Virus record (IMG/VR): IMGVR_UViG_3300045988_174698
Reading direction: 5' to 3' (one strand)
Length of the DNA stretch: 64,000 nucleotides
From: a virus
Shown: positions 12,390 to 64,000 of the stretch, one piece after another
How positions within the stretch are numbered: the first letter of the stretch is position 1
Layout: the number at the start of each line of letters is the position of its first letter
Notes under the pieces: model-generated
What the model saw: only the letters and a program-made list of their open reading frames with translations
Databases searched by the model: none
Told to the model about the DNA's origin: nothing
Position numbers and translations under genes: made by a program

Positions 12390-12390
12390 T

Positions 12391-12681
12391 ATGTTATCTA
12401 TTATTAAAGAATTATTGTTGAAAATTATTAATGATATTGACACAGGCAATTTAAATTTAAGTGCAAAGGAGTGTGAAGAAGTTATTGACTATTTGTCTTT
12501 CATAAGTAATAAGAATGAAAAGCTTAGTAAATATCAAGCTTGTAAATATTTAAACATCAGCAGAGCTACTTTTGATAATTATGTTCGTGCAGGCAAAATT
12601 CCAAAAGGAAGAAAACAACAAGGATTTAAAGAGTTATTCTTTTATAAGAAAGATTTAGATAAATTTAAAGAAAATAATTAG
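12391..12681 (+). CDS. small helix-turn-helix DNA-binding protein (AlpA/excisionase-like, ~96 aa)
   Basis: Contains ...KYQACKYLNISRATFDNYVRAGKIPKGRK..., a typical HTH. The ATG overlaps the fibre stop and it ends at TAG 12679-12681. Confidence 0.55.
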   Translation: MLSIIKELLLKIINDIDTGNLNLSAKECEEVIDYLSFISNKNEKLSKYQACKYLNISRATFDNYVRAGKIPKGRKQQGFKELFFYKKDLDKFKENN

Positions 12682-12707
12682 TAACATGACGCTAACTATT
12701 CTTTGGT

Positions 12708-12745
12708 TGTAATCCTCTTAAGTTGAGAAACTTAAGAGGATTTTT
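12708..12745 (+). terminator. rho-independent terminator
   Basis: The hairpin AATCCTCTTAAGTT-GAGAAA-CTTAAGAGGATT is followed by TTTTTATTTT. Confidence 0.6.
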
Positions 12746-12765
12746 TATTTTGTATAGTAACGTTA

Positions 12766-12794
12766 TGTTTTACGTTATTGTGATTATATCTTTG
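12766..12794 (+). promoter_or_regulatory. Bacteroidota-type promoter candidate (-7 TAtcTTTG at ~12787-12794)
   Basis: A TAnnTTTG motif lies 58 nt upstream of ATG 12852, with a TTT-containing -33 region. Confidence 0.4.
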
Positions 12795-12851
12795 TATTGT
12801 TGATCAACGAAACAAAAAATTAAATGTTTAACAATTTAAGTATTTTTTAAT

Positions 12852-13766
12852 ATGGCAGAGGAAAAAACTTATGTGTTTGGTGAAGGTGCAGGTAATGGTA
12901 TTTTAGGCCTTTTAGGTCCTATGCTTTCACAAAGAGGAGTAGATCCAAACGTTCTATTAGCAATGCAAGGCCGTAATAATGATGGATTTGGCGAGGGAGG
13001 CTGATTCATTTGGGTAATTTTCCTATTCTTCCTTATGGGTTGAGGAGGTAATGGGTGAGGTAATAATGGTGCTGGTGGCTTAGGAAATCAGCTTAATAAT
13101 GATTATGGTAGAGAGATGTTGTTACAAGCTATTAATGGAAATGGAAATGCAATTAGTCAGCTAGCTAGCACACTTAATTGCGATATTAACGCAGTACAGA
13201 CTGCAATTAATTCTGTTCAGAGTCAGATTCAGTCTGTAGGTAATCAAGTTGGGATGAGTGGCCAACAGATTATTAATGCTATACAGGCAGGTAATTGTCA
13301 GATTGCTTCCCAGTTAGCTTCATGCTGCTGCGATGTACGTGAGACAATAACAAAACAGGGCTATGATAACCAATTAGCTACTTTGAACCAAACAAATATT
13401 CTTGGCAGTAAAATAGATCAGCAGACAACATTAATTAATGATAAGTTCTGCCAGCTGGAAATGCGCGAGATGCAGAACAAAATTGATGCTCTTCGTGAGG
13501 ACAAATCTGCTTTGATTAATCAGCTAAGTCAAGAACATCAAACAAGTGCTATTCAAGCCTACCAAACTCAGACTATTGCTCCTGTGAATGCAGCTCTAGT
13601 AGCACTTCAAAGAGAAGTAGATAGTATTAAGTGTAAATTGCCCGAATCAGTATCTGTTCCGTACTCTCCAGTAGTTGGTGTACCAACTTGTGTTGCAGCT
13701 CAATTTGGTTTAAATGCACTTGGTTATAGCAGTGGATTGTGGAATAATGGTAGTATTTGGGCCTAA
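12852..13766 (+). CDS. membrane-anchored Gly/Trp-rich protein with Gln-rich coiled coil and Cys cluster (~304 aa)
   Basis: ATG 12852. I checked position by position that it is in frame with track ORF 13116-13766 across three TGAs. The hydrophobic segment GGWFIWVIFLFFLMGWGGNGWG has three of its Trp codons as TGA. A Q/N-rich region follows, then a CCCD motif. Confidence 0.6.
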
Positions 13767-45573: not shown

Positions 45574-47451
45574 ATGAAGATAAAAAGATATCAAACAGGG
45601 GGTATATACTATACCCCCTTTTCTAGAGATTCAATAGCTCAGCAAGAATCTCAAAACACACCAAGTACAACAACAGATAATAAAAAAGAAGAACTTATAC
45701 AGAAGGAAATTATTAATGTACTGAAGGAAAATGGGCTTCCTAATGATGTTGATTATTTTCTGTCTAGAGCTAACACATTTCTAAGAAAGTCTCAAAATTT
45801 AGGATCGCTGTTTGAAGGAAACCAGGAAACATCTTACGATATGTCAGATTTAATTAGAATACAATCTTTGGCTAATAGAATTAAACATAATAACAGTTTA
45901 TATCAACAGGCTAGCAAACAAATTAATGATGAAGGAGCTGGATCAGAAGTAGCTATTACTAATACTGGTGGCATGTATGTTTTTGATAATGATAATGGCG
46001 TTAAAATAGTATCTTTAGATACATATTATGAAAATCCAGATAAATATAGGATATTAACAAACTCGGAGTTAATCCGACTTAGAGAAGAACAACCAGAGTT
46101 AGCTTACAATAGTGATATTCTAACTGACTTATCAAATACTGTTGGCATGGAGTCAATAGTAGATTATGTGAAATCAACTATTGGTGCTTTTGGTACTAAT
46201 AAATCTTCAAATCAATTTGATAGATATACTTCGAAGCAAAAAGATCAAATTGAAAAAGGATTTGAACAGTTGTTGGGTTTTGATTCTCCTGATGGCATAT
46301 ATAAAGTTACAGAATCTACTAATACTTCTGATCAAGGATATAGTGACGATAAAAGCTTAGAAGCTGCTGTTAATTATCTTTATAGAACATTACCTAGAAA
46401 TATGAAAAATGTCTTAAGAGCCAATGCAACAGCTGAAGGTTTAAATCCAAATGACCCCAAAGATGTTCAAAATTTATTAAAAATAGCAGTTATTGAACAT
46501 ACTGATCATACTAGGGAAATTAAACAACAATTAGATTATGATTCTACAGCTAGTAGTGCTAGTGGAAAAGGGTCATCAAGTAAACAGGTTGAAATGACTC
46601 GTGAGGAAATGATTACTACTGGAAACGGAGGCGTTCAATATACTCCTATAACTATTGCACATTCTAAGTCTAAAGGAGGTATAAAAGCTTTAGCACAGCC
46701 TTATGGCAAACCAATAGATACCACTGGTAAGCAAATTGGTATGGGTACACTTAGAGATGTGTTTGCTAAAGAAGATAGACTGGGATCAAGTTTAGCTTTA
46801 AACTCAATAACATTTGGAAATAGATTACTTACAGAAAGTGAATTAGATAAAGTAGTTTATGATGGAGTAAGTAATATTGAAAGAACATACTTACCGATTG
46901 ATCAAAACATATATGTGACAACAGGTAAGAAAACTCCTGATCTAGATGCACAAAATAGGTTTGAAAAATTCCAAGAATGACTTAATGCTGGATATGGAGT
47001 CACTCCAAATAGTATAACTATGAAGTTGAACGAACTAAATCTTGATATTTATAGAGAACCAGAAACAGGAGAATGAGCATTTAGAGAAGCCCATCCTTTT
47101 ATTATTGTCAATGGGTATGTTAGTGATAAAGCTGTTGACATTGATGACTCTGAATGAGTTGATCATGTAAATAGGGACGAGGGGTCTTATATATTTGATT
47201 TATACTCTAAATATATTAATTATGGGTCAGATACTCCTTCGAAAAGTAAACATAGAAATAACTTTGATGGAGGATTATTTGGTATAGGAGACGCATCCTC
47301 AATGTATAAAAGTGCTATATTTATTCCAATAACAGATAGTGCTATTGCAACAGTAGTATCTAATCATCAATTAACAAGTGCTAGTAATTATACAGATATG
47401 TTAAATCGCAGGAGACTACTACAGGAGTCTCAAATACAGACAAATTTCTAA
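45574..47451 (+). CDS. cargo-like protein (~625 aa; 3 TGA=Trp); N-terminus MKIKRYQTGGI
   Basis: Track ORF 45574-46980 continues 157 codons (counted) to TAA 47449-47451. Confidence 0.55.
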
Positions 47452-47453
47452 TT

Positions 47454-50400
47454 ATGATTGAGCAGAAGAAAAATGATTGGTTGGCGACCTTATTCTTTTC
47501 GCCTAATAAAACTCCACAAGACTTAGCTAATTTAGGTATAACAACTGATAATTCCAGCTTATTAGACAAGGAGTATTACAAAAAAGTTCCTCAAATACAA
47601 GAAGCTTTTAAAGACAAGTCTGGTAATTTTGACGATAATAAATTTGATCAGTACTATCAAACAGCTTTAAAGTTATATAATGATGCTGATAATAGTAAAT
47701 TAGTTCAGGATTTACAGGATTTCTATGAATATGATCCTAATGATTACTTTGCTCCTATAGGGGGGAAAGTAACGAATATGAGACCAAAATTAGTTCAATT
47801 TTCTAATCCTGAGAGAAGAAGTAGGGGACTAAGTAATCTTAGAGAATCTTCTGCTCCAACAATGTCTATTAGAGAAGTTGCTCAAACTAATAAGGTATTT
47901 AACTTTGATACCCAGCAATTTGAAGATTGGACTCCTAATGATTGAGGAGGATTATCAGCAGTGACAAGACCTACATTAGTATTAGCTCAATGAGATGAAG
48001 ATGGGGAACATGAGATTAATGGTAGGATTGTTAAGCACAATAAAGGAGACCTAAAATTCAATGAAAGTGGAGATCCTTTTTATGAGACTCTGGGAAATAG
48101 AGATATTGCAAATAAAGATATATTGCATATATCTGACACTTTAACTATCGATGGTAGCAAGTGAGATAAATATAATTTCTTTGATTCAGACGATCTGGAT
48201 AAAAGTGTCGTTGGCACAATGGCTAAAACAGCTTTTAAGGTTGGTATGATGTTTATTCCAGGTGTTGGAAAATATTATGGAGCGATGACTGCTGCTAAGG
48301 AATTAGGAAAATTATTTCCTGTACTTTTTAAAAGTATTGAAGGCATCGCAACTGGAGATATATCAACATCAAGATCAGCTCAGATGGCAACTGATATACA
48401 AGCATGATTTTCTCGGTTCGATAGTAGCGTCTCTGACTATGGAAGACAGAGTTTTTGGAATGTAGAAAATTTAGGTAAATTAATTGAAGATAGCTCTATG
48501 CAATTATTCCAACAAAGAGTTATTGGAAATATTCCAAAGATGTTTATTCCAAAAAATTCTATTCCTAGTGAAAATGCCATTAAATGAGGTAGAGGATTAG
48601 CTTTAGCTTATATGGCTGGAACTTCTTCCACTGAAGCGTATAATGCGTTTAAGGAAGCAGGTGCTTCAGACAGAGTAGCGGGTTTAGGTATGTTATCTAC
48701 TATGGGAGCTATGTATGGTTTGATGAATAATGACTATTTCAAAGACTTTTGGTTTAGAGATACATATTTAGATAAGGCGAAAGTCCGCTCTGTTGTTAAG
48801 GAAGCTGCTGAACAATTATCATCTAAAGAATTTGCATTAGAGACCGCTAAGAAAACATCTACTTCTAAAGGAGCAGCTAAATGGCTTCTAGATATGCAGA
48901 AGAACATAGTAAACCGCATATCTAAGATGAAACCTGGAAATCTAATTCATGATTCTCTAAATGAAGGTGTTGAGGAAACTGTAGAAGAAATAACATCTGA
49001 TGCAATAAAAGCATTATATTCAGGTTTAAATGCACTAGGTATTGCTGATAAAGAAAGGAATTACAACTTTGGAATTACTCCAGAGGATATGATATCTAGA
49101 TATTTTACTTCATTTGTAGGAGGTGGTATTGGTGGCGCTGTATTTAGTTTACATAATAGATTTGATAGGAAAAATAACCCCATACTTAATAGTACACTAA
49201 CTCAAAATGATGATTCTCTAAAAGAGATAATTTATCTTTTAAGAGATGGTAAGGAGAACCAATTAAGAATGGAGTTAGATAGATTACATAAAGCTGGTAA
49301 GTTAGGTAGTACAAATCTTTCAGGCACTGAGTTAGAGTTTGTCAAAGATGGTAATATTACAAAAGCTCAGTATAAAAGTACCAGTTCTGGTGATTCACAA
49401 AATGATCTTTTATATCAACAAATAGGATTTTATATTGATAGAATTAATGAAGTTCTTAAAGAGGAAGGGTTAGATTTAAGTGATGCTGAGTTACAATATA
49501 TTACCCAACAAGCTGATATAGCAGGCAAGTCTATTGAAGAGACTAGGCAAGGGTATCTAAATCTTAAGAAGTTAAGCAAACAACAAACAATAGAGGATAA
49601 GATTATCTCATCTGGTTTGTATAGTCAAATTTTTGAAGATTGGAATAATTTAACTTCTGAAATAATCAAAACCAAAGTAGAACTAGAAAACTTGTTGACT
49701 CCAGCAGATAATGAACCAAAAACTCCAAAAGATATTGAAGCTCGTATTGAGGCTATGAGAAATAATAGTGAATATCAACGTCTTAGACTTAAGATAGACA
49801 CTCTTAGAGCTCAACGAGATGAAATACTTACTGGAAAGAAAAATGATTTCTATACAGGGCAGTTATTATTTGCTGCAAGTCCTCAATTAGTAGACAATTT
49901 TGTATCAGGATTTGGTATACATAATTATACTCGTTGGAAGTATAAGAAAGAATATGATAGTCTTCAGCAAGATGAAAAAGATAAAATTGATGCTGAATAT
50001 CAAGCATATAGTTCTTTAGAAGAAAAACAAAAAGTACTAACTGCTTATAATATTTTCTCTGAGATGCAGGAAAGTATGATTAATACTATGAAATCAGTAG
50101 GAGAAAAGATTAAAGATAGTAGTAAAATATACCTACCAGGAGCTACAGACTACAATGTTATATATGATCAAATTTCTAATAGACTAAAAGAGAGTAGAAC
50201 TGCTCTAGATAAGGCTATTGAAAATCTTCCAGAAGGAATATCATCTAATGAGGAAATAGATAATTTAAAATTAGATATTTCTAGGTTAGAGAACCACTTA
50301 AATCAAATTAAAAGCCTTAAATTTGAAGTCTTAAATCCAGCATTAAGCGAAGAAGGACGTAATATTCTTTATAGACCTGTAAGAATAGCAGATACAAGCT

Positions 50401-53400
50401 TAGCGTTTGATAACTACACTGATTCATATCTTGGCTATTTAGAATATATTAAGAATAATAATCTATATCTTGACTTAGTTGACTCAGATTTATCTAGTAT
50501 ATTATATAATTGAATTCAAATTAATAATTTAGAGAGTAATAATCAAGCTAATTGAATTAATAGAATTCAGTCTATTCTTGACAGTCAAGGAATTGACTTA
50601 GAAGGAATGGATGATGATATAGCAAACTTATCTAGTGAGTTGATTAAGATAGTTGATTATATTAAAAAGAATAATATTTCAGGAGCATTAGATCACTACA
50701 ATTATATTCTTAGAAGCGATCTGTCTGATACATTTAGTAATATATATCAGCTTGATTTAAAGAGTATACTACCAATTTTATTACCTTCTTTTGGAAGTAG
50801 ATCGTTCTATGATTATTTAGGAGAGGTACTAAATATCAAATCACAAATTGATACTAATCCTATATATGAATTAATTGAAGCGGCTTCAAATGTCGCTGGG
50901 TTAGATAATCAAGAGGTAACTAAATTAATTAGAGAGGAACAATTTAACTTTATTAACTCCAAGAAAGTAGAAGACTTTATTATCAGAGATAGACATTCTC
51001 TTGATAAATTAAAAGAAACAGTTAAATTAATTGATGCTATCTCAGCAATACTTGATGCTTCAGTAGATGGGGGCTTTAATAGCAAAATTAATGAATTTAG
51101 AGAATCATTAGAAAAAGAACTGTTACCTATAATAAGTGTTCAAGGGCAAATTAATATTATTTCTGATCTAGCACGAGTTAAGAATCAGTTAATAACCTTA
51201 ATAGATATTTCTGAAAGAAATCAATCTCAGAAACTTAGAGAGCAGAGAGATATAGCTATAAATATGAAGTCTAAATTTATTAGCTTGCTAACTGATGATA
51301 CTTCTATTCTTAAGGATAGGTTTATTAAGATATTCGGTATTGATTTAAAACAATTATCCTCAGATATTGAAATACCTTCTAGTGGAGAAGATATAGACTT
51401 TCCTCAATTAGAGCAAGCTTCTATAGCATTAGAAACTCGTATTTTTGAAGCAGTTAAAGATCTAAATCTTTCTGCTGATGAAGTAGCCGACAAAATAGTT
51501 TCGTTATTTGATAGTAATGAACTAGTAAAGTCAGCTCCAACTACTCTTAGTAAAAATCCTAGCACTGAGATTACTGTATATGATCAAATGGTTTATATTT
51601 CCACAATACTATCAACTCCTTCTCAAAATTTTTATAAAAAATTAAAAGAAGTAATTAGTAGCGAGGAATTTAGAAACGCTCCAATATTTTCTCAAGAATA
51701 CGCAGTAAGAGTAGCTTATTCTCAAATACTAAATAAGGATTTATTTAATAGTATTATAATTAAATTAAAAGATATTTTCCAGGATAATCCTGATACATAT
51801 ATTAAAACTAAAAGTCCTTTATTTAATTTTACAGTAGTATTTGGAGGAGCTGGAGTTGGTAAGACTAAAGGTGTTGCATTCTTATTAAAGAAGATGTTTG
51901 AAGATGCAAATTATATAACCTCAGCTCCAACGAGAAAGCAAACGGATAGACTTACAGATAGTGTTGAAAGTGATGGAAATTCATTTACTAAGAATGAACT
52001 TATAGAAAAAATACTGGGACGACAAATAAAGGATTCTGATATTTCATACATTAAGGATGGTGATAATAATATTAGTATTACTAGTAATGTTAATATAGAA
52101 GTTCTTAAAACTAATCTATTTGGTGATTCTAAGAATAAGATCTTATTTATAGATGAGATTAGTTGATATGATAGAATAGAGCTAGAGTTGATTAGTAAAT
52201 GAGCTAATACTAATAATGTATCAGTAATAGCATTTGGAGATTATAAACAGAATGCAGTTCAAACAGTATTTGGAAAGGAAGTTATTGATAGTGGAATTGA
52301 GGATACTATTAATATTAAAACTCCTGATCTTATTGCTCCACTACGACCTGATAATATAGCTAAATATGATAATTATATATCCTTGTCTCAGAGATTAGAC
52401 GAGATATATAAGCAATATTATAATAACCCTGCTATAGAGCCAAAATATCTTAGTGAATTTGCTGAAAAGTATTTACAATCTAATCCTATTGAGTTTAAAT
52501 ATTTTGAAGATAGTTTTATATTTGGAGGAGAAAAAATTATTAAAGAAGATGAAGTATTTTCACATATAGAAAAGTTAAAACAGTATTCTTCAGATATTGC
52601 AATAATTACGGACAATCCTAAGAAATATAACACTACCAAAGGAGTTAAAATTGTTCCTTTAAATAGTGTCCAGGGTGATGAATTTGATTATATTATTATT
52701 GATAAAAACTTTGGATTAACAAATGAAGGTAAAAGTCGAGGAGAATTCTATAAATTAAAAGATTTATATACTCTAACTCAACGATCAAGAAAAGGATCAA
52801 TTATTGTATCTAGAGGACTAGGAAATACAATATCTTCTAAACAAGATTCGACATCATCTGGAAACATTGAAATGCCAGAATCTCAAATTCAAGATTTTAA
52901 AGAATGAAGAATAAATGCTATTCCAGATATTACTGAATCAATAGAGTTTGAAGAATATCAATCTCAACAGCCTAATAATGAACAAGCTAACGCTCCTGTA
53001 GAGCCTGCTAATAATTCAGTAGCTACAGAAAATAGCACTCCTACTACAAGCCCAATAGAAAGAGATACTGAAGTTGAGTTTACCAATCCTATAAAGCCAG
53101 AGGTACACCAAGTATCTATGGCTCCTGAGCATACAGAACCTGTAAATAACTTACAAAATACTGTTACTTCAGATATCGAGACTAGTAAACCTATAACTAG
53201 ACCAGCTAAACCAGTAGTAGGAGCTAATGAATATGTAAGTACAGCGGAGAGTTGGATTGATTTTATTAATAATGATCTAATTAAATTTTATCAAACTACT
53301 GATAATAATTTGAAGAATATTATTAATACTACTCCTGAAATTACAGTACAAATTTCAAATTTAGTAAGAGCTTTCTTTGTTAATAATAGACATAAAGATA

Positions 53401-55142
53401 ATAAAGAAATATTTGAAGCATCTCTTAAAATATTGTCTAGAGAAATTCAATCGTTTATTCCTGGATCATTAGGTCGTAAGTATTCTAATGAGATTCTAAA
53501 TCTATTAAAAACTACTCCTAAATTTTATATTATACCATATAATAATAGGGGACTATTAGTAGTAAGATTAACATTAGATTCTAAAACTGTTGATTTCCCA
53601 TTGTTAGTTACAGATCCAGTTATTGGAGAGTACTTTGGGGATATTTTAGCAGTATCGCCTCTTCGTAAGGAAAGTGCTATAGATTCAAATACTTCAGTTA
53701 ATTTATCAAATTTTAGACAATCAGCTATTAATCCAAAAGGATACTTTAGAGCATTTAATAAACCTGTTGTATTATCAGTAAATTCTGCGGAGAGAACTAA
53801 ATATAGTGGCGATCAACAAGAATGATTAAATCAAAGAAATAATGGTAATACATTTATGGTTGTGTCAAGTGACCCTTATGTAACTGATGATGATTTTAAA
53901 GAATTCTTAGCAGCCACTACTAATGGTTCTATTAAAACATATAGTACTCAACATGATTACAGATTTGCTCTAATTGGGATGAACTGATTAGTGTCTATAG
54001 ATGATATCATCAAGCAGTCTAATAATAGGAAAAATTATGATATTATTCCAGGATATAGAAGCTCAGTGATTGCTAAGTATGTATATAAAGTAGCTCCAGA
54101 TAGAGTTAGAGAGGCTATTAGAATACATTTAAATACCTCTAAATATCCTAACCAGCGTATTAGAATAAATGGTATAGTGTATAAAGATGCAGAATTAGCT
54201 ATCCAAAATATATCTAATGATTCTAATATAGAGTTTGGTTATGAAATTAATGGAGACTTTAAATATCAGTCTGGAGTAGCTACTATGAATACTATTTTGT
54301 ATAAGATAGTAAATAGAGAATCAGTAATTTCAATTAATGATGGTCAAATTGAACAATTAAAACAGTTATGTTTAGAGGCTCCTGAATTTAAAATGGGTAT
54401 TTATGGAAGAGATGTTATTGATACTCAAGTTAATCCTGCTGGAGATTATTGGTATGCTATTCAAGGTCATGATTATAATACTAATATACCCATGATTATT
54501 GGTAATGACTATAGTATTGATTTGTCAGCAGTTAATAACGAACAAGCAGCAGAAGATAAAAAAGTAGTAGAATCTGTTAACGAACAATTACAAGAGTTAA
54601 AACTTAATGAAGTTATTGTCACTAAAGATAACATAGATACAGCTATTGAATCTATTAATTCTGAAATAGCTTCTAAAGTTCAATCTACAGAATTTGATGT
54701 AGTTAAAGTTGAAGGAAAAGCAATTACAACAGAATCAGTATTTGATCCTAAAGTAATGATATCTAATCAACTAAATACTCCAAAAGAAACTATTCATTTT
54801 TATAGAGATAAGATTTCTGACTTTGAACCATTTTTTGTATCTTTGCAAGACAAGAATTATACATACGTTCTTGAAAAGAAAAATAATGTGTGAAATATTA
54901 GAACATTTAATATAGCAGATGCGTATATTAAATTTAGAGATGCTATGAATAGTATGAGTGATATTATTGTAGCTAATCCTAATTTAAGTAAGTATATAAC
55001 TGCTTTAATATTAAATCAGGAAGTAGATAAATTAACTGCAGAATCTTATTGAAATGAAATTAATAGTAACACTGCATTAATAGGGCTGCAGCAAGAAGTT
55101 GAAGAATATTTAATTAATAAATTAAAGAACAATGAGTGTTAA
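47454..55142 (+). CDS. colossal protein (~2562 aa; ~9 TGA=Trp) containing a RecD/Pif1-like SF1 helicase core
   Basis: Track ORFs 47454, 48219, 48612, 50607, 52383, 53118 and 53991 are all in frame 0. I read every gap and found it in frame with no TAA/TAG, ending at TAA 55140-55142 (counted). The helicase motifs are Walker A VVFGGAGVGKTKG (~51840), Walker B ILFIDEIS, motif III VIAFGDYKQN, and motif V/VI NSVQGDEFDYIIIDKN. Confidence 0.6.
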
Positions 55143-58100
55143 GTGTGGATACACAATTAAGTATTATCCTCTATTAAGCAGAGTCTTTAATACAAGTACA
55201 GATGAAGAATTTAAATCGTTTTTAGAGGAATATTTTATAGATCCAGATAGTGTATATAGAATGTTCTTGGGTGGGATTTCAACAAATCCTACCCAGACAT
55301 CTATATTTGAACCTAAGAAAATTAGTAGTAGAACTGGATGAGAAGTAAAAACTGATAGTAAATCAGCACAACAGTTTTATATTGGACAGTCTGTTCAATA
55401 TAATAAGATGACAAGTGACTTTGTTAAGAGAATTATATCTTTATCAGTATTTGATCTAGCAAGTGAGCAGTTTATAGATGCTAATAGAAAAGTTGGAGAT
55501 CTAACAGTATTAAATAGAGGTATTTTTGAATACAAAAAGGAGTTGCTATGATATGTATTATCATATTTAGGAAAACCTTCTCCTAATTTGGATAGTATGA
55601 CTGACGTAGATATTGAATCTACTATAGAAAGTACACTATCTGAATTTAGTAGTTATATAAATAATTCTCCTAATCTTGATAATAAATATTATCAAGCTTA
55701 TAATTCATATGTAACTCTTAGAACATTTGACGATCTATTAAAGCAATTAACACCATTTGTCTCTATTAATCCAGAATATAGTAAGTCTTCAATATATTCT
55801 AGAAATAGATATATTTATAATGGTCCTAATGTTACTCACTATACAGGATTTAGTACTAATGAATTTATGTCTCAAGAAGAAAGTGTTAGTGACCTTGCTA
55901 AGATACTCTTAAATTATCTTCCAGAAGTTAATATAAATGGAGATATTATTGATGGGACCTCTATTTCGTTATCTGGGTTTAATTCTGTAATGGGGAAGAT
56001 GAAATTATGAGCTGAAGAAAGTTCTAATCCAGAAGTAAAAGAAGAGCTTAAGAAAGGAACTAAAATGGATGTTAGTAAGCTCATATCTTTATATGAACAA
56101 GAACTATCTAACAGAAAAGTTTCTAATCCTGAGCATATAACTTATTTAAGATCAAAGTTATCAGCTATAAAAAGATTTATATATGACTCTAAAATGCATG
56201 AGGATATTAAAGACATGTTTACACATCTAATGGAAAAAACTGTTCTCTCAAGTTATGTTAGTTATGAGCAGAAAGATGGTAAAAGCATGGAAGTTAGAAA
56301 TCTAACACAACGTCCTATTAAAATGCAAAGAGAAGCAATAGTAGAAACAGTAAAGGCTATTACTCAATATTGAAAGCAAAATAGATCTAGATTTAATGAG
56401 TTACTTAGGAAGTATAATGTTAGAGGTATAGGTTCTGTTATATCTATTGGAGATAGTAGAATTACATTAGAGGGAAATGGAAAAATATCTATTACTGGTC
56501 CTATAAGTAATTTTAATGAAATAGTTGGGGACTTTGTTAATTTATTAATATCAGATGATTTTGATCAGGTAGCTAGTCAAGTATTTCCAAATAGTAACTA
56601 TACTAAGTATGAGTTATATGCTCCTGTATTAGGAACTGTAATTTTTGATGTTATCAACAACAGTAATACTAATCTCAATTTTGGACAGAGTAATGATTTA
56701 GGTAGAGTACTCAGTGTTATTAATGGATCAGATACAGTTAATGTCATTAAAAATGCAGAAGGTAATAACTTACCATTATATCAGATGATTTGTTTAAGTT
56801 ATCAACATAATGGTGTTTTTAATGAAATTAGTAAACAGATTGATGATAAAGATCTATATATGTCACAGTATCATGACAATGCTGTATATAAAAATATACA
56901 ACATGTCAAAAGTCCTAAAATTCGATCAGAAGTAACTATTAATGGAGTTACAAAGCAATCTTCTGCTCTTACAGCAAATGACGTTATGCACTTATCTATT
57001 GTATATGACTTTTATCAAGGCCTAACTATGGATCAATCTCATACTGAAGGATCTAGGTCTAAATCAGGAATTGTTGGTATTCAAAGTCATGTATATTCTG
57101 ATAAGAATAAACACTTTGTAATGCAGTTTGATTTAAATCAAACATGAGATTTTGGCAACGGTAATTCATTTAATATCAAATCTGTCCTAGATCAGTACTT
57201 TAAATCTGGAAATGAAATTGATTTAGAACCTATAAAGAAAGCTTGGTTTGAAAGTAATAAATCTCAGATAGAGAGTGTGATAGAAACTATTCTATCAGAT
57301 TATAGACAAGTATATCCAAATAAAGAATTTAATTCTATACATGATATTAAGGTATTCTTAGCTAAGAATAAAATAAATAAGGTTAGGGAAGATTTTGCTA
57401 GAGCTAATGTTGAATTTATTGATGAAATACATGCATCTAAAACTAAAGCAGGATGAGTGTTTAATGAAACTTTAGAAAATTTTGCTAATATATTTAGTAA
57501 TAGAGATAAGTTTAATGAGTTTTACAAAAGTCAGTTTACTAAATTTTTAGAGGATAGTTCTGGAGCTTGGTCCACTATTTCAGTAGATCAAAATATTGTT
57601 AACTCTTTTAAACAGAATAATCCTAAATTTGTAAAGGATGGTAAACTTCTCAAAGAAGTTAATGGGGTTATTAATCCTTTATTAGGTGCTTATTTTATTA
57701 CCGATTCATTTCTATCAAATGAATATAATAAAATGATGGTCGGAGATGTCTATGCTCACCCTAATAAAGAAAAAGAAAGTCCTACCACAAATGGATATCT
57801 AGATCATAGTCTAGCTTCTAGATGAATATCTCAGGTAAAACGTATGGTTATTTATGGAGCTACATATCATTCTCTCGCACAAGGTTTAAAAAATGGAGTG
57901 CCAGAAAGAGTTAAAATGGCTGTTATGTCTGATATGGGATCAAATGTAAGTAACATATCTGGAATGTCTAGTACTGTAGATTCTATGGATGGTTCAGGTT
58001 ATACTAGTCCATTTATGTCTAGATGAGAGAATGTATCTCTTATAGACGCTGCAGTAGGAGCTAACAAGAAAACTATCTTTCATGATGTTGATGCTAAACA

Positions 58101-61100
58101 CGGACTACCGAAATTACTTAAATGGGCTGAATATGAGATAACTAATGCTATCAGAAGAAATAGTTCTGATACTAGTATGGAAAACATCTTCAAGAAAATG
58201 CACAGTTTGGAATTGCCTTTAGATGTTACCATAGATTATGACAAGCAATTTGATGATCTATTCTTTAGGGATAATGTCAGTGGAAAATATTATAAAATAT
58301 TACATATTAATATCTCAAATAATGTAGCTCATAGAGAATTAGTTGAAGTTACTAAAGAAGGTGTTCCTATTAATCCTGATAATATTATTACTAATGATAA
58401 GCTAATTAAAAGTATATATGATATAGATCAAACATTTGGTGGTGCATGAGCTATGAAAATAGATAATCGTACCAATAATCTTCAGTATTCAGAACATAAT
58501 CTAGATTATACTAATCAAATTATTTGTGATTATGATCTTAAAGATTCTATGATTAGTTGGTTGGTAAATAAGTCAGCTATTAAAGTTGGAGCTTCAAATA
58601 TTAATGATGTAACTTCTTGAAATGATGGTACTCCATTATTATTTACTACAATGTCTACTAAGTTTGGAGGTGTTCAAATGAATGCTGATCATGAACTTGA
58701 TGAAGCAGAGGTAACTGAAATGACTCAAATGATTAGTGGTCTTGAACAAAACGGATATACTCATCATTTAGCAACACGAGTTTATGAAGAAATTGGTAAA
58801 TTCTGTTATGATGCTATTAGTAAAATTCAGGATATTATTTATAATGGAAATAAGGATGATCTTTACAAAATATTTGGAAAAGCTGTTATTAACGCATTTG
58901 CTGGCGGTAGTAAGGATACTCTAGGTTTAGCTCAGTCCTTTGTAAAACTTGCTCAGGAAGGACTAGAAAATAATAATTTAGAATATAGAATACCTTTTAG
59001 TTCTTCATCTATCAATGGCATTTTTAACTCTACAGTCACATCCTCTCTAGTAAGAGATGCGATTAGGCGTCACTACAATGGTGTTGCGGCAGTATTAAAT
59101 CCCTCATATAATGTAGTTCAATATCATACAATTAATGGTAACAATTATCGATATGAAGAATTAATAGATTTAATTGCAGAAGCTACAAGAGGTACAACTT
59201 ATGAGGGAATGACCGTAGATGATGCTGTAAATAAAGTTTTTGTTGTTGATACAAATGGAAATGTGGTTGTAAATCCATTTATTGATGATATTACTCCAGA
59301 TAACCCAGTAGATTTTGAGGATACTATTATCGTATGAGGAGAAAATAATCAAGTAGTAAAAATAGATAAAATAGATAGTTACAATAAATATATATACTAT
59401 CGATTATATGAGCCTGGGCGTATTAGTAGGTGGACAACTAAAGCTAAAAATCTTAAAGGATCAGATACTACTTTTGTAGCTAATGGACGTAAATATAGTA
59501 TGTTTGAAAGTCCTTATACTCAGGTGCTTCATTATTTTATTGAAAGTGATAGTAGTGCTACTAATATAGAGACCCTTAGAGATGAGCTACGTAGTGAAGT
59601 AATAAAATCAATACCTAATGAAAGAGCTGATGAAAATGTTATAGAGAATATAGTAAATAGCAGATTACAACTTATAGTAAATGAAATTACTCCATTTATG
59701 CCAAAAGGATTTACAGAAAAAACTTCATTTACAAAATATATTCCTAATATTAAAAAAGCTTTAATCAAAAAGCAGCAATCTGTTCTTAATAATTTAGCTG
59801 ATGGTAAGCCTATTGATTGAGGAGGATTAATGTTAAATGCTACAGAGTATAAAGTTATCCCAGCACAGATTATTATGGGTAAGCTTTATGCTAAAGAGTT
59901 AGGATTGCTTCCTGGTGATTCTATTGCTAAAATTAAGGAACAAGGTCCAGAGTTCTTTATAAATAGAATTGATGGCTACTACAATTTCTATGATAATGCA
60001 GATGAGTTAACTTATGACTGAACTTTATTTGATGGTGCAGGAAATAAGTTATATGTTAAACTTAGAAATCCTAAGATTAATGAACTGTTTACTAATTCAT
60101 CTTTAGATTCTGATTATAAGATTATTGATGGTTCAGTATACTTTAATGGTAATGAAATCTGCTCTTCTGAAGGAAAACAATTCTTAAAATATACTGATTC
60201 TGATAATGTTCAACATAATGTAGTTATTATTGATTCAATAGATAGACTCAAAGAGTTAGAAAATTCTAAGATGTTTACCTATACTCATAGAAATTATAGA
60301 ATTGATAACTATGTTGACTTAGTAAAAGAAGAGTTTGGAGAAGGAACATCTATTCAATTAACTTACCGACCAACTGGAAGTAGAAAATATACTACTAGTA
60401 ATATTGCTGAATTTAATGATAAACTTGAAATAATTCGAGCATTAGCTGAAAATCAAGATTATAATTGAACTAAACAAATTAGAAAATTAGCAGAAAATAA
60501 GTATAAATCTTTTGAAAAGAGTTTATATTTTGTTGGTACACGTATTCCTTGTCAGTCTATGCAATCGTTTGCTCCTATGGAAATTATTACATTTACTGAT
60601 AGTGAAGTAAATGAGGTATACGTTCCGACACAAATTTTCTACTTGGAAGGATCTGACTTGGATAAACTTTCTATGTTCAAGTAAAACTCTTTTAATTGCT
60701 GGAAACCCCTAACGTAAAGACGAGGGCAATCAGCAGCCAAGCCGTAACAAAACGGAAGGTTCAACGACTAATATTAATAACTTAATAATTCGACTTTAAT
60801 AGTATGAAACAGTTAAAAACACATTTAAATAAAATAGGAAGAAATTTAATAATTGCTATGTCTATAGGGGATGGGCATATAGCTAAAAAAGGATATTTAG
60901 ATATAAATCATTGTGAAGCTCAGAAAGAGTATTGTTTATGAAAATGGCAACTTTTAAAAGATAATGGAGTTAAAGTTGGCACGTTTAGAGAATGAAAACA
61001 AATAAATGGATATTCTAAAGGTAAAGAAGTAACTAAATATGGATTTCAAACAACAGTACTTGATTTTTGTAAAGTACTTAGACGAGTTGAATATGAGTAC

Positions 61101-64000
61101 GGAAAAACTAAATATAATAAAAAGTTACTTAAGCGACTTGGAGCTCAAGGGTTAGCAATATGAATAATGGATGATGGAGCATTACTTCGTAGATCTAAAA
61201 CAAATAAAGATGGAATACGAACATATTCAGGATTTTATATTACAATATCTACGTATTGTCCATTAGAGCAAGCTAATGATATTATAGAATATTTTAATGA
61301 AGAATGAGATATTTATCCGACTAAGGTTTTTGATAAAAGGCAGCAATCCTATATAATTAATTTTTGTGCCAGAGAAGGTAGAAAATTAATAGAAATTATA
61401 AAACCTTATATGTGTCCCCACATGATGTATAAGGTTCTTCCTGATAAAATAGAATGTGAAAACTACATGAAGTTATTAAAAGAAACAGCTGAAACTGCTG
61501 TTGAAGGTACACTAGAAATAGTGGAAATGGAGAGCGCGAAAGCGAAGATATAGTCTGATCTATATAGAAATATATAGTTAACACAATTGATAGATAAACA
61601 ATATATCCTTGGCTATTCATTATCATCTAATGGTCGTATTAATACTGATGAAAACTCAGCACCTTATTTACGAGCTGATGCATTAAGAAATAGAGTTGTA
61701 GATGGTGTATTTAGTATTATTCTTAATCCTAGAAACCAAATTAACTTAACAATGCCAGTAACTACTGATCGAATGCAAAGTCTTGCTAAAAGATCTAAAA
61801 TGGGTGAAGCTGCTAAATATATGAGTCCTTACAATCCAGCAAGTAAGTACTTAATGCAGATTCAAAATATGGTTGGTAAAGCAGTTATTGGTAATGTTGC
61901 TACGGCATTAAAAAGTTTCTTTGCCTTAAGCAACGTATATAATACCAAGTTTAGAGAGATTAATGAAGCAATTCAAACTGGTAATTTTGATATAGCTAGA
62001 ACGATGTTAAAAAGATATACATTTATCCATAATGATAGACTAATAACATTAGCTAATGTTAATATGGAAGTATTTGAGAGTCTACCTGAAAATACTCCTG
62101 AAGATATTAGACAAACTCTAGCTCAAGTAATTAGTTATGAGGATGCCTTAGATGATCAATCTATGGTACTTGGAGAACTTTTAAATAGTGCTACTGATTT
62201 TTTCATCAGAAAATTATTGAATAACTTGCCTATATTAATTTTTATTATTATCTTTGCACTATAGATAAAAATAATTTAAAACAAATTAATATGGCAAAGA
62301 AATTAACAAATGAAGAAGTTGAAAAACTTCATAAAATGTATTTAGAAGGAATGACTTGTGAAGAAATTGGAAAACTTACAGGTCATAAAACAGAAACAGT
62401 ATCTAAATATCTAAAAGAGAATTATGATATAAAGCCTCAAAGAAAAATTGATTTAGTAATTTTATCAAAACTAGCAAAAGAGGGAAAAACAACTAAAGAA
62501 ATGGCAGAATATTTTAATGTACATCCTTCTGCTATATGCTATTGAAAAAAGTATTTTAATGAAGGAGATCTAAAGATTTCGCACCCTTTTTTGCAAGAAG
62601 ATCATCAATTATCTCATCTACAAGAACAAATGATTCTTGGCAGTTTATTAGGAGATATGAACATAGGAAAACCTAGAAAACATCATCCTACTTGTAGATT
62701 ATCCTTAGTACACTCAATTAAACAAAAAGAATTATTTATGAAGAAAGTAGAAATTCTTGGAGAATTTATGAGTAATTATAGAGAATATAGTTATTTAGAT
62801 AATAGAACAAATAAAATATATTCTACTATAAGAGGAAATAGTAAATCTCATAAAGTATTTAATGATATGTATAATAAACTATATATTAATGATATTAAAA
62901 CAATTACTAAAGAATATTTAGATATGATTAATCATCCAATAGCATTAGCTTACTGATTTATGGATGATGGAACGAATTCTGGACAAATAGCTACAAATTG
63001 TTTTTCTTTTGAAGAGGTTAAATTACTATCGAATTGACTAGAAAACAAATTTGGTATTATTACAACAATGCACAAAAATTTAAGAAATTATACTTTATAT
63101 ATAGTTGCTAGCTCTAGATTTGAATTTGATAATTTAATTTCTCCTTATATTATTCCTTCTATGAAATACAAATTAAAATTTTCTGAAATAGCAGAGTCAG
63201 TTAACTCCGTGAAAACGGGAAAGCCCTTAGAGATTTAAATACTAAACTATTATAGTAATATGATAGTGGCTAAGCTAATCACTTAGATATAGTAATAAGT
63301 TTAAATATTGGGTAATCCGTTACTAAGCTTCCTAATAGGAAGAAAGTTCAACGACTATCGAAATGCAGAAATGACAGAGTAGAGTAGAACTTAAGTAAGT
63401 TCGAAGTGCGGAGATCCTGTATAGGATAAGATATAGTCTGAACTCATAGGAAACTATGAGAGAACTTATGGAAACGATAAGTTCGTAACAAAATTGAATG
63501 CAAAGGAATTAATCCTTAAAAAAATTAATGCAGATACAAACTGGGTAGATATTTATACTATTTCTCTTATGTTAGGTGAATCACTAGATGAAATTGGTAA
63601 TTTAATGATTGATGATGATATAACAGAACTAGTAAATGATTTTACTACTAGTATGTTTAGTGATGAACAGAACTATGATAAAGTTCGTTATGTTGCTGAT
63701 AAAGCATATACCTCTGAAGGAGAGAAAAAAGAGAAATATCTACAATTGCTGGATAAAGTTATATCTGCGGATGAAGTACGTATCTTAGGAAAGATACTTA
63801 AAATTAATCAAGGTCTTCCTACAAACACTTCTGATTTATATAGTTATATTAAATCTATTGAAAAATATATAGAAAGTAGGTTTAATAGACAAATACTAGA
63901 AAAACAAGAAGAATATTTAAGAATTGAAAAGGAGTTAGAAAAAACTTGATTAACTCCTGAAAAGAAGGAAATATTAAAAGAGGAACGAAGATTACAAAAA
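55132..64000 (+). CDS. giant gene (exon 1 ~1850 aa with ~11 TGA=Trp) interrupted by two group I introns; continues beyond the window
   Basis: Eleven track ORFs from 55132 to 60468 are all in frame 1, with TGA-only junctions. Exon 1 is in frame to AAG 60679-60681, then a TAA. Exon 2 is at about 61575-62262 (LTQLIDKQYILGY...FIIIFAL). Exon 3 starts at about 63450-63477 and is open to the window end. Splice sites are approximate. Confidence 0.5.
60682..61574 (+). mobile_element. group I intron 5 with double-motif LAGLIDADG homing endonuclease gene
   Basis: Core elements are P TTAATTGCTGGAAACCCC (60692), Q CAATCAGCAGCC, R GTTCAACGACTAAT and S AAGATATAGTCTGA (~61543). An in-frame TAA lies at the 5' end and a TAG at about 61572-61574 before exon 2. 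The 5' splice site may lie about 15 nt upstream. Confidence 0.6.
60804..61553 (+). CDS. LAGLIDADG homing endonuclease (double motif, ~249 aa; 4 TGA=Trp)
   Basis: Motif 1 is LIIAMSIGDGHI and motif 2 is LAI-W-IMDDGAL, where the Trp is a TGA. The ORF ends at the TAG inside the S element. Confidence 0.75.
62263..63470 (+). mobile_element. group I intron 6 with LAGLIDADG homing endonuclease gene located upstream of the ribozyme core
   Basis: There is no P/Q at the 5' end. The core lies downstream of the ORF, with a P6-like hairpin CTTCC-TAAT-AGGAAG, R AAGTTCAACGACTATCG (~63340) and S AAGATATAGTCTGA (~63430). Boundaries are approximate. Confidence 0.5.
62291..63238 (+). CDS. LAGLIDADG homing endonuclease with N-terminal HTH extension (~315 aa; 3 TGA=Trp)
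   Basis: The N-terminal HTH is MAKKLTNEEVEKLHKMYLEGMTCEEIGKLTGHKTETVSKYL. Motif 1 is ILGSLLGDMNIG and motif 2 is LAY-W-FMDDGTN. I counted the codons through to TAA 63236-63238. Confidence 0.75.

What the first reader, a model, noticed from the sequence alone, without database searches (positions are those of the whole stretch)
55132..64000. Over 2250-aa gene interrupted by two group I introns carrying LAGLIDADG endonucleases; one ORF sits 5' of its ribozyme core
Exon 1 is open in one frame for about 5.5 kb. The first intron has the same core consensus as the capsid-gene introns but carries a double-motif LAGLIDADG enzyme instead of GIY-YIG. The second intron has no P/Q at its 5' end. Its LAGLIDADG ORF carries an N-terminal HTH and precedes a compact core with R and S elements near 63340-63440. 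The host gene's function is unknown, with no polymerase or terminase motifs recognised. LAGLIDADG introns target highly conserved catalytic sites, so the insertion points mark functionally critical residues. Each intron end carries in-frame stops (TAA at 60682, TAG near 61572, TAG at 62262 and 63434).
Basis: partly seen in the sequence, partly recalled or inferred. Interest (0 to 1): 0.7.

Follow-up and report, generated by a model that had tools for sequence, protein, structure and literature searches.

The report
Two introns split crAss-phage RNA polymerase
The gene is the virion RNA polymerase of a gut crAss-like phage that reads TGA as tryptophan, and it is interrupted by two mobile self-splicing group I introns, one of them inside the codons for the enzyme's catalytic Asp-x-Asp-x-Asp site. 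This is an ordinary mechanism that probably explains polymerase gene "frameshifts" previously called unexplained.

Summary
With TGA read as Trp (14 in-frame TGAs, no other stop), 55132-60663 is one 1844-codon exon. Intron 1 is 60664-61589 (926 nt), exon 2 is 61590-62198, intron 2 is 62199-63496 (1298 nt), and exon 3 starts at 63497 and runs off the window.

Uninterrupted homologues read exactly ...GSDLD|IDKQY... and ...SATD|NAKELIL... across the predicted junctions. Both inserts are group I introns. Each has a P1 helix with a G.U pair at the 5' splice site, a terminal G, matches to Rfam RF00028, and strong compensatory covariation across relatives. Both encode double-motif LAGLIDADG endonucleases. 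The second also carries two N-terminal HTH modules and sits inside the P1 loop, upstream of the whole core.

The host is the crAss-like virion RNA polymerase, a homologue of phi14:2 gp66. Intron 1 lies between the second and third catalytic Asp.

Relatives have empty sites, ORF-less introns of 184-337 nt, and four different insertion points within the Asp-motif codons. A co-conversion tract flanks intron 1. Intron-rich Zeta-group crAss-like phages are already published, so this is a new member of a known kind. It does give a conventional explanation for the "frameshifts within DxDxD" reported for these phages.

The parts
55132..60663 (+). Exon 1 of the virion RNA polymerase gene. It has 1844 codons and 14 in-frame TGA=Trp codons, and ends ...EGSDLD (first two Asp of DxDxD).
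   Evidence: The junction is fixed by uninterrupted homologues. The catalytic region aligns with phi14:2 gp66 and crAss001 gp50.
60664..61589 (+). Intron 1, a 926-nt group I intron ending in G61589.
   Evidence: The same 926-nt insert is found in L014 and L029, and the site is empty in about 20 related loci. RF00028 gives 44.8 bits for the 5' half. The ORF-less orthologue in L045 gives 68 bits. Covariation is shown.
60656..60682 (+). Intron 1 P1 and P10. Exon ACUUGGAU (60656-63) pairs with the IGS GUUCAAGU (60675-82), with G.U at the splice site. UCUAU (60670-74) pairs with AUAGA at the start of exon 2 (P10).
   Evidence: Sequence. Compensatory variants are ACTACGAT/GTTGTAGT (L038), ATTATGAT/GTCATAAT (L031) and ATTACGAT/GTCGTAGT (L045).
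60687..60770 (+). Intron 1 core, 5' half: P3 5' strand (60687-92), P4, P5, P6, and P7 5' strand GACUA (60766-70).
60804..61553 (+). HE1, a 249-aa double-motif LAGLIDADG endonuclease ORF with 4 TGA=Trp codons. It lies between P7 and P3'. Its 3' end overlaps P3', P8 and P7', and the stop TAG 61551-53 is inside P7'.
   Evidence: Pfam PF03161, E=8.7e-19. TGA positions, including the conserved ...AIWIMDDG, are.
61529..61589 (+). Intron 1 core, 3' half: P3' GGAGAG (61529-34), P8 CGC-GAAA-GCG (61535-44), P7' UAGUC (61551-55), P9 (61560-77), and the terminal ...AAUUG.
   Evidence: The P7 covariant GATTA/TAATC occurs in L045.
61590..62198 (+). Exon 2, 203 codons, running from IDKQYILGYS... to ...LLNSATD.
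62199..63496 (+). Intron 2, a 1298-nt group I intron ending in G63496.
   Evidence: The site is empty in many loci. ORF-containing versions are 1296-1305 nt and ORF-less versions are 337 nt. The fold is supported.
62291..63238 (+). HE2, a 315-aa endonuclease ORF with HTH_38, HTH_23 and LAGLIDADG_2 domains and 3 TGA=Trp codons. It lies inside the P1 loop. Its 3' end overlaps the IGS, P3, P4 and P5.
   Evidence: Pfam. TGA at the conserved ...AYWFMDDG. L1 is 997 nt here and 35-36 nt in ORF-less relatives.
63196..63201 (+). Intron 2 internal guide sequence GUCAGU. It pairs with exon ACUGAU (62193-98), with G.U at the splice site.
   Evidence: Compensatory variants are ACAGAT/GTCTGT, ACCGAC/GTCGGT and ACAGAC/GTCTGT in relatives. 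RNAalifold finds P1 on its own.
63205..63496 (+). Intron 2 ribozyme core: P3, P4, P5 with a P5a-c extension, P6/P6a, P7 (63353-58 with 63433-38), P7.2 (63387-402), P8 (63414-27), P9 (63443-60), P9.1 (63462-84).
   Evidence: RF00028 at 50.1 bits, E=4.6e-12. 96.7% of cells are paired, and 34 of 92 pairs have double changes, against 13.7+-2.6 in shuffles.
63497..64000 (+). Exon 3, starting NAKELILKKINAD... It runs off the window.

Best explanation
**What the window is.** The window comes from a crAss-like (Crassvirales) gut phage whose late genes read TGA as tryptophan. Its features fit the published 'Zeta' group.

**The gene.** The gene starting at 55132 encodes the giant single-chain virion RNA polymerase (vRNAP), the enzyme that is packaged in the virion and transcribes early genes after injection. 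Its pre-mRNA carries two group I introns.

**Splicing (inferred from structure, not assayed).** In each intron the IGS pairs with the last 6-8 exon bases to form P1, with a G.U wobble at the cleavage site. An exogenous guanosine bound in P7 attacks the 5' splice site. The freed exon then attacks after the terminal G. The result is ...GSDLD-IDKQY... and ...SATD-NAKELIL..., which restores the catalytic DxDxD motif and a second invariant motif.

**Mobility.** Each intron encodes a double-motif LAGLIDADG homing endonuclease. It presumably cuts intron-less alleles in co-infecting relatives so that the intron and some flanking exon are copied in. The endonuclease ORFs themselves need TGA read-through. 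Their 3' ends overlap essential ribozyme helices, so on any one transcript translation of the endonuclease and splicing should exclude each other (inference).

**Architecture.** In intron 1 the ORF lies between P7 and P3'. In intron 2 it fills the P1 loop, so the 5' splice site and its guide sequence are about 1 kb apart and there is no P2.
For: **Recoding.** All 14 in-frame stops in exon 1 are TGA. TGA falls at the conserved Trp of the YWFMDDG and AIWIMDDG endonuclease motifs.

**Junctions.** Uninterrupted homologous proteins and loci read GSDLDIDKQYILGYS and L(N/S)AATDNAKELILKKINAD with no gap at the predicted joins.

**Group I fold.**
- RF00028 hits: intron 2 core 50.1 bits; intron 1 5' half 44.8 bits; the 184-nt ORF-less orthologue at the same site 68 bits over the full model.
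- Intron 2 family: RNAalifold recovers P1, P3-P6, P8, P9 and P9.1. With P7 added, 96.7% of cells pair. 34 of 92 pairs carry double changes, against 13.7+-2.6 in shuffles (0 of 500 reach this) and 2-6 in slid controls.
- Intron 1 family: 13 of 36 predicted pairs are compensatory, and P1, P3, P7, P8 and P9 covary.

**Endonucleases.** Pfam matches.

**Host identity.**
- The segment upstream of the join hits about 98 Crassvirales records, most of the listed ones under genes annotated as RNA polymerase. These include crAss001 gp50 and phi14:2 g066.
- G-R-P...GSDxDxDKxY is invariant in the alignment.
- Pairwise BLASTP gives E=5.6e-6 to gp66 and 1.4e-6 to gp50.

**Mobility.**
- The introns are present or absent among relatives with 92-97% nucleotide identity in most exon segments.
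- About 95 nt upstream and 30 nt downstream of intron 1 are heavily diverged from the otherwise near-identical intron-less relatives. In that tract the sequence resembles another lineage. This is a co-conversion signature.
Against: - No RNA or protein data exist; splicing, cleavage and mobility are inferred.
- Rfam with default filters on the whole window, or on 100 kb of related loci, reports neither intron. Matches appear only in narrow scans.
- Intron 1 in the window never reaches the gathering score, because the ORF splits its core.
- P10 of intron 2 is weak: 3 bp, offset by 2 nt.
- Sequence similarity of the host to solved vRNAP is confined to about 55 residues. Pfam, PHROGs and PDB sequence or profile searches found nothing.
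- The AF2 model has low confidence (pLDDT about 30-45) around the DxDxD loop itself.
- The role of the ATDNAKE motif is unknown, and no counterpart was seen in gp66 or gp50.
Confidence: 0.9

Rival explanations
1. Split gene. The three 'exons' are separate genes translated on their own, giving a multi-subunit polymerase. The two LAGLIDADG genes are free-standing endonucleases sitting between them, and there is no RNA splicing.
For: A TTG codon lies immediately before exon 2 (ORF 61587-62264). Published work notes that RNAP protein boundaries vary among Zeta-group phages (PMC7886860).
Against: - The break would cut the catalytic Asp triad between its second and third Asp.
- The flanks form canonical P1 and P10 helices with compensatory changes that track exon wobble positions.
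- Complete group I cores are present.
- Many relatives carry the same codons uninterrupted.
- Exon 3 has no start codon at the junction.
Confidence: 0.03
2. Decayed introns. The inserts derive from group I introns but no longer splice, so this copy of the polymerase gene is dead (a defective phage or an assembly of one).
For: There is no expression data. Intron 2 has a weak P10 and an unusual 1-kb P1 loop. Two relatives even have C-G instead of U.G at the splice site.
Against: - Identical or near-identical arrangements occur in independent metagenome contigs up to about 100 kb (L029, L014).
- All core helices are intact, and paired positions change by compensation rather than decay.
- Both endonuclease ORFs are full length.
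- The vRNAP is essential in this phage order (established knowledge; phi14:2 work cited in PMC7886860).
Confidence: 0.05
3. Inteins. The inserts are removed at the protein level.
For: LAGLIDADG domains also occur in inteins, and inteins are reported in these phages (PMC7886860).
Against: - Both inserts shift the frame (926 and 1298 nt are each 2 mod 3) and carry TAA/TAG stops in the exon frame.
- Pfam matches are to LAGLIDADG_2 and HTH domains only, with no Hint domain.
- The endonuclease ORFs have their own ATG in another frame.
- RNA structure explains the boundaries.
Confidence: 0.01

Closest known systems
Group I introns of Zeta/Delta-group crAss-like phages (Yutin et al. 2021, Nat Commun, PMC7886860)
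   Same: Same phage assemblage and same phenomena. That paper reports TGA/TAG recoding of late genes and up to 14 group I introns per genome, with intron ORFs that themselves contain TGA. Its Fig. 3 of the transcription block marks a LAGLIDADG, and RNAP ORFs are described as disrupted inside DxDxD.
   Different: That work found introns through endonuclease domains and gave MCP and PolB as worked examples. It left the RNAP disruptions unexplained ('additional, yet unknown expression mechanisms'), and a 2023 review repeats this (PMC10136315). Here the RNAP interruptions are resolved to the nucleotide as group I introns. ORF-less versions, which a protein-domain search cannot see, are also shown at the same sites.
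PhiPA3 vRNAP intron encoding the HNH endonuclease gp210 (Birkholz et al. 2024, Science, PMC11620839)
   Same: A group I intron with a homing endonuclease interrupts a phage virion RNA polymerase gene. The insertion site borders the second of the conserved Asp residues. The endonuclease cuts the intron-less allele of a co-infecting relative.
   Different: The phage lineage is unrelated (a nucleus-forming jumbo phage with a multi-subunit vRNAP). The endonuclease is an HNH nickase rather than a LAGLIDADG enzyme. That case has experimental proof of cleavage and competitive benefit; none exists here.
Phage IA2-type group I introns (T4 td/nrdB, Twort orf142) - from my own knowledge, not tested here
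   Same: A compact core with extra helices between P7 and P3' (P7.1/P7.2). They are inserted in conserved enzyme genes, and the ORF is looped out of the core.
   Different: Those ORFs are GIY-YIG or HNH and sit in P6a or P8 (T4, SPO1), or are absent (Twort). Here the ORFs are LAGLIDADG enzymes placed between P7 and P3' (intron 1) and in the P1 loop with no P2 (intron 2). Subgroup assignment was not formally tested.
Nuclear rDNA intron PpLSU3 with I-PpoI in the P1 loop - recalled, not checked
   Same: The endonuclease ORF lies between the 5' splice site and the internal guide sequence.
   Different: It is a eukaryotic rDNA intron with a His-Cys box enzyme. I did not look for another phage example of an ORF in the P1 loop.
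phi14:2 gp66 virion RNA polymerase (PDB 6VR4)
   Same: The GxRxP...GSDxDxDKxY catalytic block aligns, and 6VR4 is the top structural match for a homologue's model. The position in the late/virion gene block next to another giant gene is also shared.
   Different: Identity is about 37% over only about 57 residues. The protein is longer than 2214 aa, against 2180 aa for gp66. The gp66 gene has no introns.

Membership tests
Group I intron (Rfam RF00028) | P1 helix between the 5' exon end and an internal guide sequence, with U.G at the cleavage site | tested here: met
   Intron 1: ACUUGGAU with GUUCAAGU. Intron 2: ACUGAU with GUCAGU. Both have G.U at -1, and both covary with exon wobble positions in relatives.
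Group I intron (Rfam RF00028) | Terminal guanosine (omega-G) at the 3' splice site | tested here: met
   G61589 and G63496 (both introns end ...AAUUG). The positions are forced by uninterrupted homologues.
Group I intron (Rfam RF00028) | Conserved core P3-P9, scored by the covariance model at or above the gathering score (50 bits) | tested here: met
   Intron 2 core scores 50.1 bits, just at threshold and only when scanned alone. The intron 1 5' half scores 44.8 bits, below threshold because the ORF splits the core. Its ORF-less orthologue in L045 scores 68 bits over the full model. Whole-window default scans miss both.
Group I intron (Rfam RF00028) | Helices supported by compensatory substitutions | tested here: met
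   Intron 2 family: 34 of 92 pairs have double changes, 0 of 500 shuffles reach this, and slid controls give 2-6. Intron 1 family: 13 of 36. Only 5-6 distinct sequences were available for each.
Group I intron (Rfam RF00028) | Guanosine-dependent self-splicing | not testable with these tools
   Needs an in vitro splicing assay or RNA-seq.
Subgroup IA2 | Extra helices P7.1/P7.2 between P7 and P3' | tested here: inconclusive
   Intron 2 has a covarying hairpin at 63387-63402 in that position. L045 has a hairpin there, and intron 1 carries its ORF there. No subgroup-specific model was run.
LAGLIDADG homing endonuclease (Pfam PF03161) | Profile match above the gathering score, and two LAGLIDADG motifs for a monomeric enzyme | tested here: met
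   68.5 and 120.9 bits against a cut-off of 25. The motifs are ...AMSIGDG... and ...AIWIMDDG... in HE1, and ...GSLLGDM... and ...AYWFMDDG... in HE2.
LAGLIDADG homing endonuclease (Pfam PF03161) | Site-specific cleavage of the intron-less allele (homing) | not testable with these tools
   Indirect support only: presence/absence polymorphism and a co-conversion tract.
crAss-like virion RNA polymerase (phi14:2 gp66 type) | DxDxD metal-binding motif in the catalytic double-psi beta-barrel (DPBB) domain, alignable with gp66 D1361/1363/1365 | tested here: met
   GSDLD|IDK aligns with GSDFDIDK (gp66) and GSDFDVDK (crAss001 gp50), together with upstream G-R-P.
crAss-like virion RNA polymerase (phi14:2 gp66 type) | Overall fold with two DPBB domains in one chain | tested here: inconclusive
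crAss-like virion RNA polymerase (phi14:2 gp66 type) | Packaged in virions and transcribes early genes | not testable with these tools
   Needs virion proteomics or transcription assays.
Intein | In-frame insertion with Hint splicing domain | tested here: not met
   Both inserts shift the frame and contain exon-frame stops. No Hint match was found.

The most novel reading that the evidence does not exclude
The published puzzle says that Zeta-group crAss-like RNA polymerase genes carry 'frameshifts and stop codons within the DxDxD motif' and so need 'yet unknown expression mechanisms'. Two ordinary things may account for all of it: TGA recoding, and group I introns, many without an endonuclease ORF and therefore invisible to protein-domain searches. 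At least four adjacent insertion points lie within the 15 nt that encode the catalytic Asp triad. That stretch would then be a homing hot spot, hit independently in crAss-like phages and in jumbo phages (PhiPA3). The endonucleases may act as weapons between co-infecting gut phages.
Probability: 0.55. Interest if true: 0.55.

Novelty: new member of a known kind. Interest (0 to 1): 0.45.

Why it matters
- **Annotation.** Exact splice junctions and the genetic code allow correct annotation of the largest and most divergent essential enzyme of a very abundant group of human gut phages.
- **An open puzzle.** The work replaces a postulated 'unknown expression mechanism' for fragmented polymerase genes with a testable, conventional one.
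- **Method.** Standard Rfam scans and endonuclease-domain searches both miss these introns. One reason is ORFs of about 750-950 nt that split the core or P1 loop. The other is ORF-less copies.
- **Biology.** Independent invasion of the same catalytic-motif codons in two unrelated kinds of virion RNA polymerase suggests these codons are a preferred target. It also raises the question of whether intron endonucleases mediate competition among gut phages, as shown for PhiPA3/PhiKZ.

Tried and rejected
- **Host protein family searches.** Pfam, PHROGs, PDB sequence and PDB profile searches with the host protein gave no meaningful hit.
- **Neighbourhood of the closest homologue.** The look-up of encoding contigs for P0001 had nothing on record.
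- **First locus search.** The trimmed alignment A3 worked.
- **Broad Rfam scans.** Rfam found no intron in the whole window, in 60300-64000 at E<=10, or in 100 kb of related loci at gathering threshold. Narrow scans were needed.
- **Alternative P1 for intron 2.** I first considered the nearby AUCAG (62205-09) pairing with CUGAU. This was rejected because it gives U-A at the splice site and is broken in L020/L021, where the exon reads ACAGAT, while the distal IGS compensates.
- **Another guide candidate.** GAUAGUGGC (63262-70) lies inside the covarying P5 extension, so it was rejected.
- **Recombination breakpoint at intron 1.** 500-nt identity windows show no change of nearest relative across the site. 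What exists is a short local tract.
- **Counterpart of ATDNAKE.** None was found in phi14:2 gp66 or crAss001 gp50.
- **Suppressor tRNA.** None is present in the window.

Full report
**1. What is in the sequence**

Under the standard bacterial code the region 55132-64000 looks like a string of about 20 short same-strand ORFs. The frame that starts at ATG 55132 is interrupted only by TGA. There are fourteen in-frame TGAs, and the first TAA is at 60682. Reading TGA as a sense codon raises the coding content of the + strand across the whole window. It yields giant ORFs of 1544, 1216, 1594, 1450, 2584 and 1852 codons. The phage therefore reads TGA as an amino acid. Trp is indicated because TGA falls at the conserved Trp of the LAGLIDADG motif block...AYWFMDDG in HE2 and ...AIWIMDDG in HE1.

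**2. Where the exons end**

tblastn and protein searches found relatives that are uninterrupted at one or both positions.
- MT835492 reads ...GADYDIDKAYVMGF... and ...LLNSATDNAKELILNKINAG... continuously.
- Database proteins P0003-P0008, P0012-P0014 and P0017 read ...WLEGSDLDIDKQYILGYS... and ...LLNAATDNAKELILKKINAD....
- Other relatives stop at GSDYD, or start at (L)DIDK or MIDK, or stop at ...SATD. These carry inserts at the same places.

Mapping four flanking peptides onto 42 IMG/VR loci fixes the window's boundaries:

| Feature | Coordinates | Size |
|---|---|---|
| Exon 1 | 55132-60663 | 1844 codons |
| Intron 1 | 60664-61589 | 926 nt |
| Exon 2 | 61590-62198 | 203 codons |
| Intron 2 | 62199-63496 | 1298 nt |
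| Exon 3 | 63497 onward | runs off the window |

No other register reproduces the conserved residues, because the bases flanking each junction differ. The exons in the window sum to 2214 codons.

**3. Intron 1 is a group I intron**

- **P1.** The last eight exon bases ACUUGGAU pair with GUUCAAGU (60675-82), with G.U at the cleavage site.
- **P10.** The adjacent UCUAU pairs with AUAGA at the start of exon 2.
- **3' end.** The intron ends in G.
- **Rfam.** RF00028 matches the 5' part at 44.8 bits (E=9.7e-11, model positions 1-190).
- **ORF position.** The ORF sits after P7 (GACUA, 60766-70). After it come P3' (GGAGAG), P8, P7' (UAGUC) and P9.
- **Relatives at the same site.** They carry a 930-nt version (L038), a 309-nt ORF-less version (L031-37, L043) and a 184-nt ORF-less version (L045). 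The L045 version matches RF00028 over the full model at 68 bits, E=1.4e-17.
- **Covariation.** P1 covaries with the exon: ACTACGAT/GTTGTAGT, ATTATGAT/GTCATAAT and ATTACGAT/GTCGTAGT. P7 changes GACTA/TAGTC to GATTA/TAATC. P3, P8 and P9 also change by compensation. RNAalifold finds 13 compensatory pairs among 36.

**4. Intron 2 is a group I intron with its ORF in the P1 loop**

Scanned alone, 63200-63460 matches RF00028 at 50.1 bits (E=4.6e-12) from model position 41 to the end. This covers P3 through P9.

The guide sequence took some finding. A nearby AUCAG would give a U-A pair and is broken in L020/L021. The real guide is GUCAGU at 63196-63201, three bases before P3. It pairs with exon ACUGAU, with G.U at -1.

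It tracks the exon in relatives:

| Exon | Guide | Loci |
|---|---|---|
| ACAGAT | GTCTGT | L020, L006 |
| ACTGAT | GTCAGT | L022 |
| ACCGAC | GTCGGT | L005, L014 |
| ACAGAC | GTCTGT | L015 |

The distance from the splice site to the guide is 997-1003 nt in ORF-containing introns and 35-36 nt in the 337-nt ORF-less ones. In the ORF-less introns that stretch is a small hairpin. So the ORF occupies the P1 loop and there is no P2.

On six distinct family members, RNAalifold independently predicts P1, P3, P4, P5 with a three-helix extension, P6/P6a, P7.2, P8, P9 and P9.1. With P7 added as a pseudoknot, 96.7% of cells pair. 34 of 92 pairs show changes on both sides, against 13.7+-2.6 in shuffles (0 of 500) and 2-6 when partners are slid. 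P10 is weak.

**5. The intron proteins**

Both match LAGLIDADG_2 well above threshold and have two motifs. HE2 also has HTH_38 and HTH_23 modules at its N-terminus. They contain 4 and 3 TGA codons respectively.

HE1's last codons overlap P3', P8 and P7'. HE2's overlap the guide sequence, P3, P4 and P5. I infer that a ribosome finishing either ORF would unfold the ribozyme, so one transcript cannot do both jobs at once. This kind of conflict is known from T4 I-TevI (my own knowledge, not tested here).

**6. What the host gene is**

Family libraries and PDB sequence searches are silent. Other evidence identifies the gene.
- The 50-70 residues before the first junction hit about 98 Crassvirales records. 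Many of the listed hits lie under genes annotated as RNA polymerase, including crAss001 gp50, crAss002 and phi14:2 g066.
- In the alignment, G-x-R-x-P and GSD-x-D-x-DK-x-Y are invariant. The window has GSDLD|IDKQY, phi14:2 has GSDFDIDKMY (Asp 1361/1363/1365 by my count from the record) and crAss001 has GSDFDVDKLY.
- Pairwise BLASTP gives E=5.6e-6 and 1.4e-6.
- In Suoliviridae relatives the match lies in a protein of about 4300 aa. This corresponds to the window's two adjacent giants (2584 aa plus this gene).

Intron 1 therefore splits the catalytic triad after its second Asp. Site 2 lies 204 residues downstream in ATD|NAKE. This motif is invariant even in the most distant relatives found, but its role is unknown.

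**7. Evidence of mobility**

Both sites are empty in many relatives and occupied in others, including genomes 92-97% identical in most neighbouring exon segments.

Compared with those close, intron-less relatives, the window is almost identical except for about 95 nt upstream and about 30 nt downstream of intron 1. In that tract it is heavily substituted and resembles a different lineage (L012/L041) at the protein level. This is what co-conversion during endonuclease-initiated homing produces.

The Asp-motif codons carry four different insertion points among relatives:
- GA|DYDIDK (L044; ORF in the P1 loop, guide GGCACC)
- GSD|YDIDK (L030, L039, L040)
- GSDY|DIDK (MT835470)
- GSDxD|IDK (this window and others)

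**8. Comparison with what is known**

Yutin et al. 2021 described Zeta-group crAss-like phages of 145-192 kb with TGA or TAG recoding and up to 14 group I introns. The intron ORFs themselves need suppression, and a LAGLIDADG is drawn in the transcription block. They also reported that Zeta RNAP ORFs are disrupted by stops and frameshifts 'within ... the DxDxD motif', and they proposed unknown expression mechanisms. A 2023 review repeats this.

Three features of the window fit that group: TGA recoding, intron density (four more Rfam intron matches at 19112-22568) and relatives on contigs of 160-177 kb. The kind of element is therefore known.

What is added here:
- nucleotide-exact junctions;
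- proof by covariation;
- the ORF-in-P1-loop architecture;
- ORF-less introns at the same sites;
- the multi-site hot spot.

Together these give a conventional explanation for at least part of the reported puzzle.

A striking parallel is PhiPA3. There a group I intron with an HNH endonuclease interrupts the virion RNAP gene next to the second conserved Asp, and it harms co-infecting PhiKZ.

**9. Verdict**

The finding is a new member of a known kind, of moderate interest. No wet-lab evidence exists, so splicing and homing remain inferences.

Noticed in passing
window 19112-23545: The capsid-gene region holds four more RF00028 matches: 20378-20598 at 73.4 bits, and 19112-19406, 20910-21154 and 22295-22568 at 39-45 bits. 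ORFs at about 21169-22071 and 22466-23545 match NUMOD1 and I-HmuI-NUMOD domains, and one matches GIY-YIG only weakly (E=6e-4). A third similar ORF at 19229-20056 has no Pfam hit.
   Followed up: partly
window 60568-60663 and 61590-61620, compared with L005/L007/L009/L011: About 95 nt upstream and 30 nt downstream of intron 1 are heavily substituted relative to otherwise near-identical intron-less relatives. In that tract the sequence resembles another lineage (L012/L041). This looks like a co-conversion tract left by homing.
   Followed up: yes
L044 ~3480-4622; L030/L039/L040; L003 (MT835470) 12153-13225; window 60663|60664: Relatives show four different intron insertion points within the five codons of the catalytic motif: GA|DYDIDK, GSD|YDIDK, GSDY|DIDK and GSDxD|IDK. 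All have U at -1. The L044 intron also has its ORF in the P1 loop, with guide GGCACC.
   Followed up: partly
L005/L014 and L015, site-2 introns: In these relatives the Asp codon is GAC, so the base at the 5' splice site is C and pairs with the guide G as a Watson-Crick C-G pair. The near-universal pairing there is a U.G wobble (2 of 6 distinct sequences). Whether these copies splice efficiently is unknown.
   Followed up: no
L009/L010 ~5740-6053: A different ORF-less intron of about 310-330 nt lies about 18 nt upstream of site 2 (LGEL|LNSATD). I could not fix its junction and P1 to the nucleotide.
   Followed up: partly
window 47388-55142: The upstream neighbour is a 2584-codon ORF with 14 TGA codons and a P-loop-like GGAGVGKT. 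Its stop overlaps the polymerase start. In Suoliviridae phages cr109_1 and cr114_1 the polymerase-like segment lies inside a single CDS of about 4300 aa, annotated 'DprA-like' or hypothetical.
   Followed up: no
whole window: There is no tRNA gene in 64 kb, so no TGA suppressor is encoded here. The suppressor presumably lies elsewhere in the genome.
   Followed up: no
window 60300-64000; loci L005-L045: A methodological point. Rfam cmscan with default or broad-range filters misses all of these introns, including compact ORF-less ones that score 68 bits when scanned in a 221-nt window (against 36, 82, 83). Genome-scale Rfam annotation of such AT-rich phages will under-count group I introns.
   Followed up: yes
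L014 versus window/L029: L014 has the identical intron 1 and 98-100% identical exon 2, but a clearly different intron 2. It is 1296 nt, has a different guide, P4, P5, P6 and P8 sequences, and lacks a 14-nt stretch after P7. This shows that introns at the two sites are exchanged independently.
   Followed up: partly
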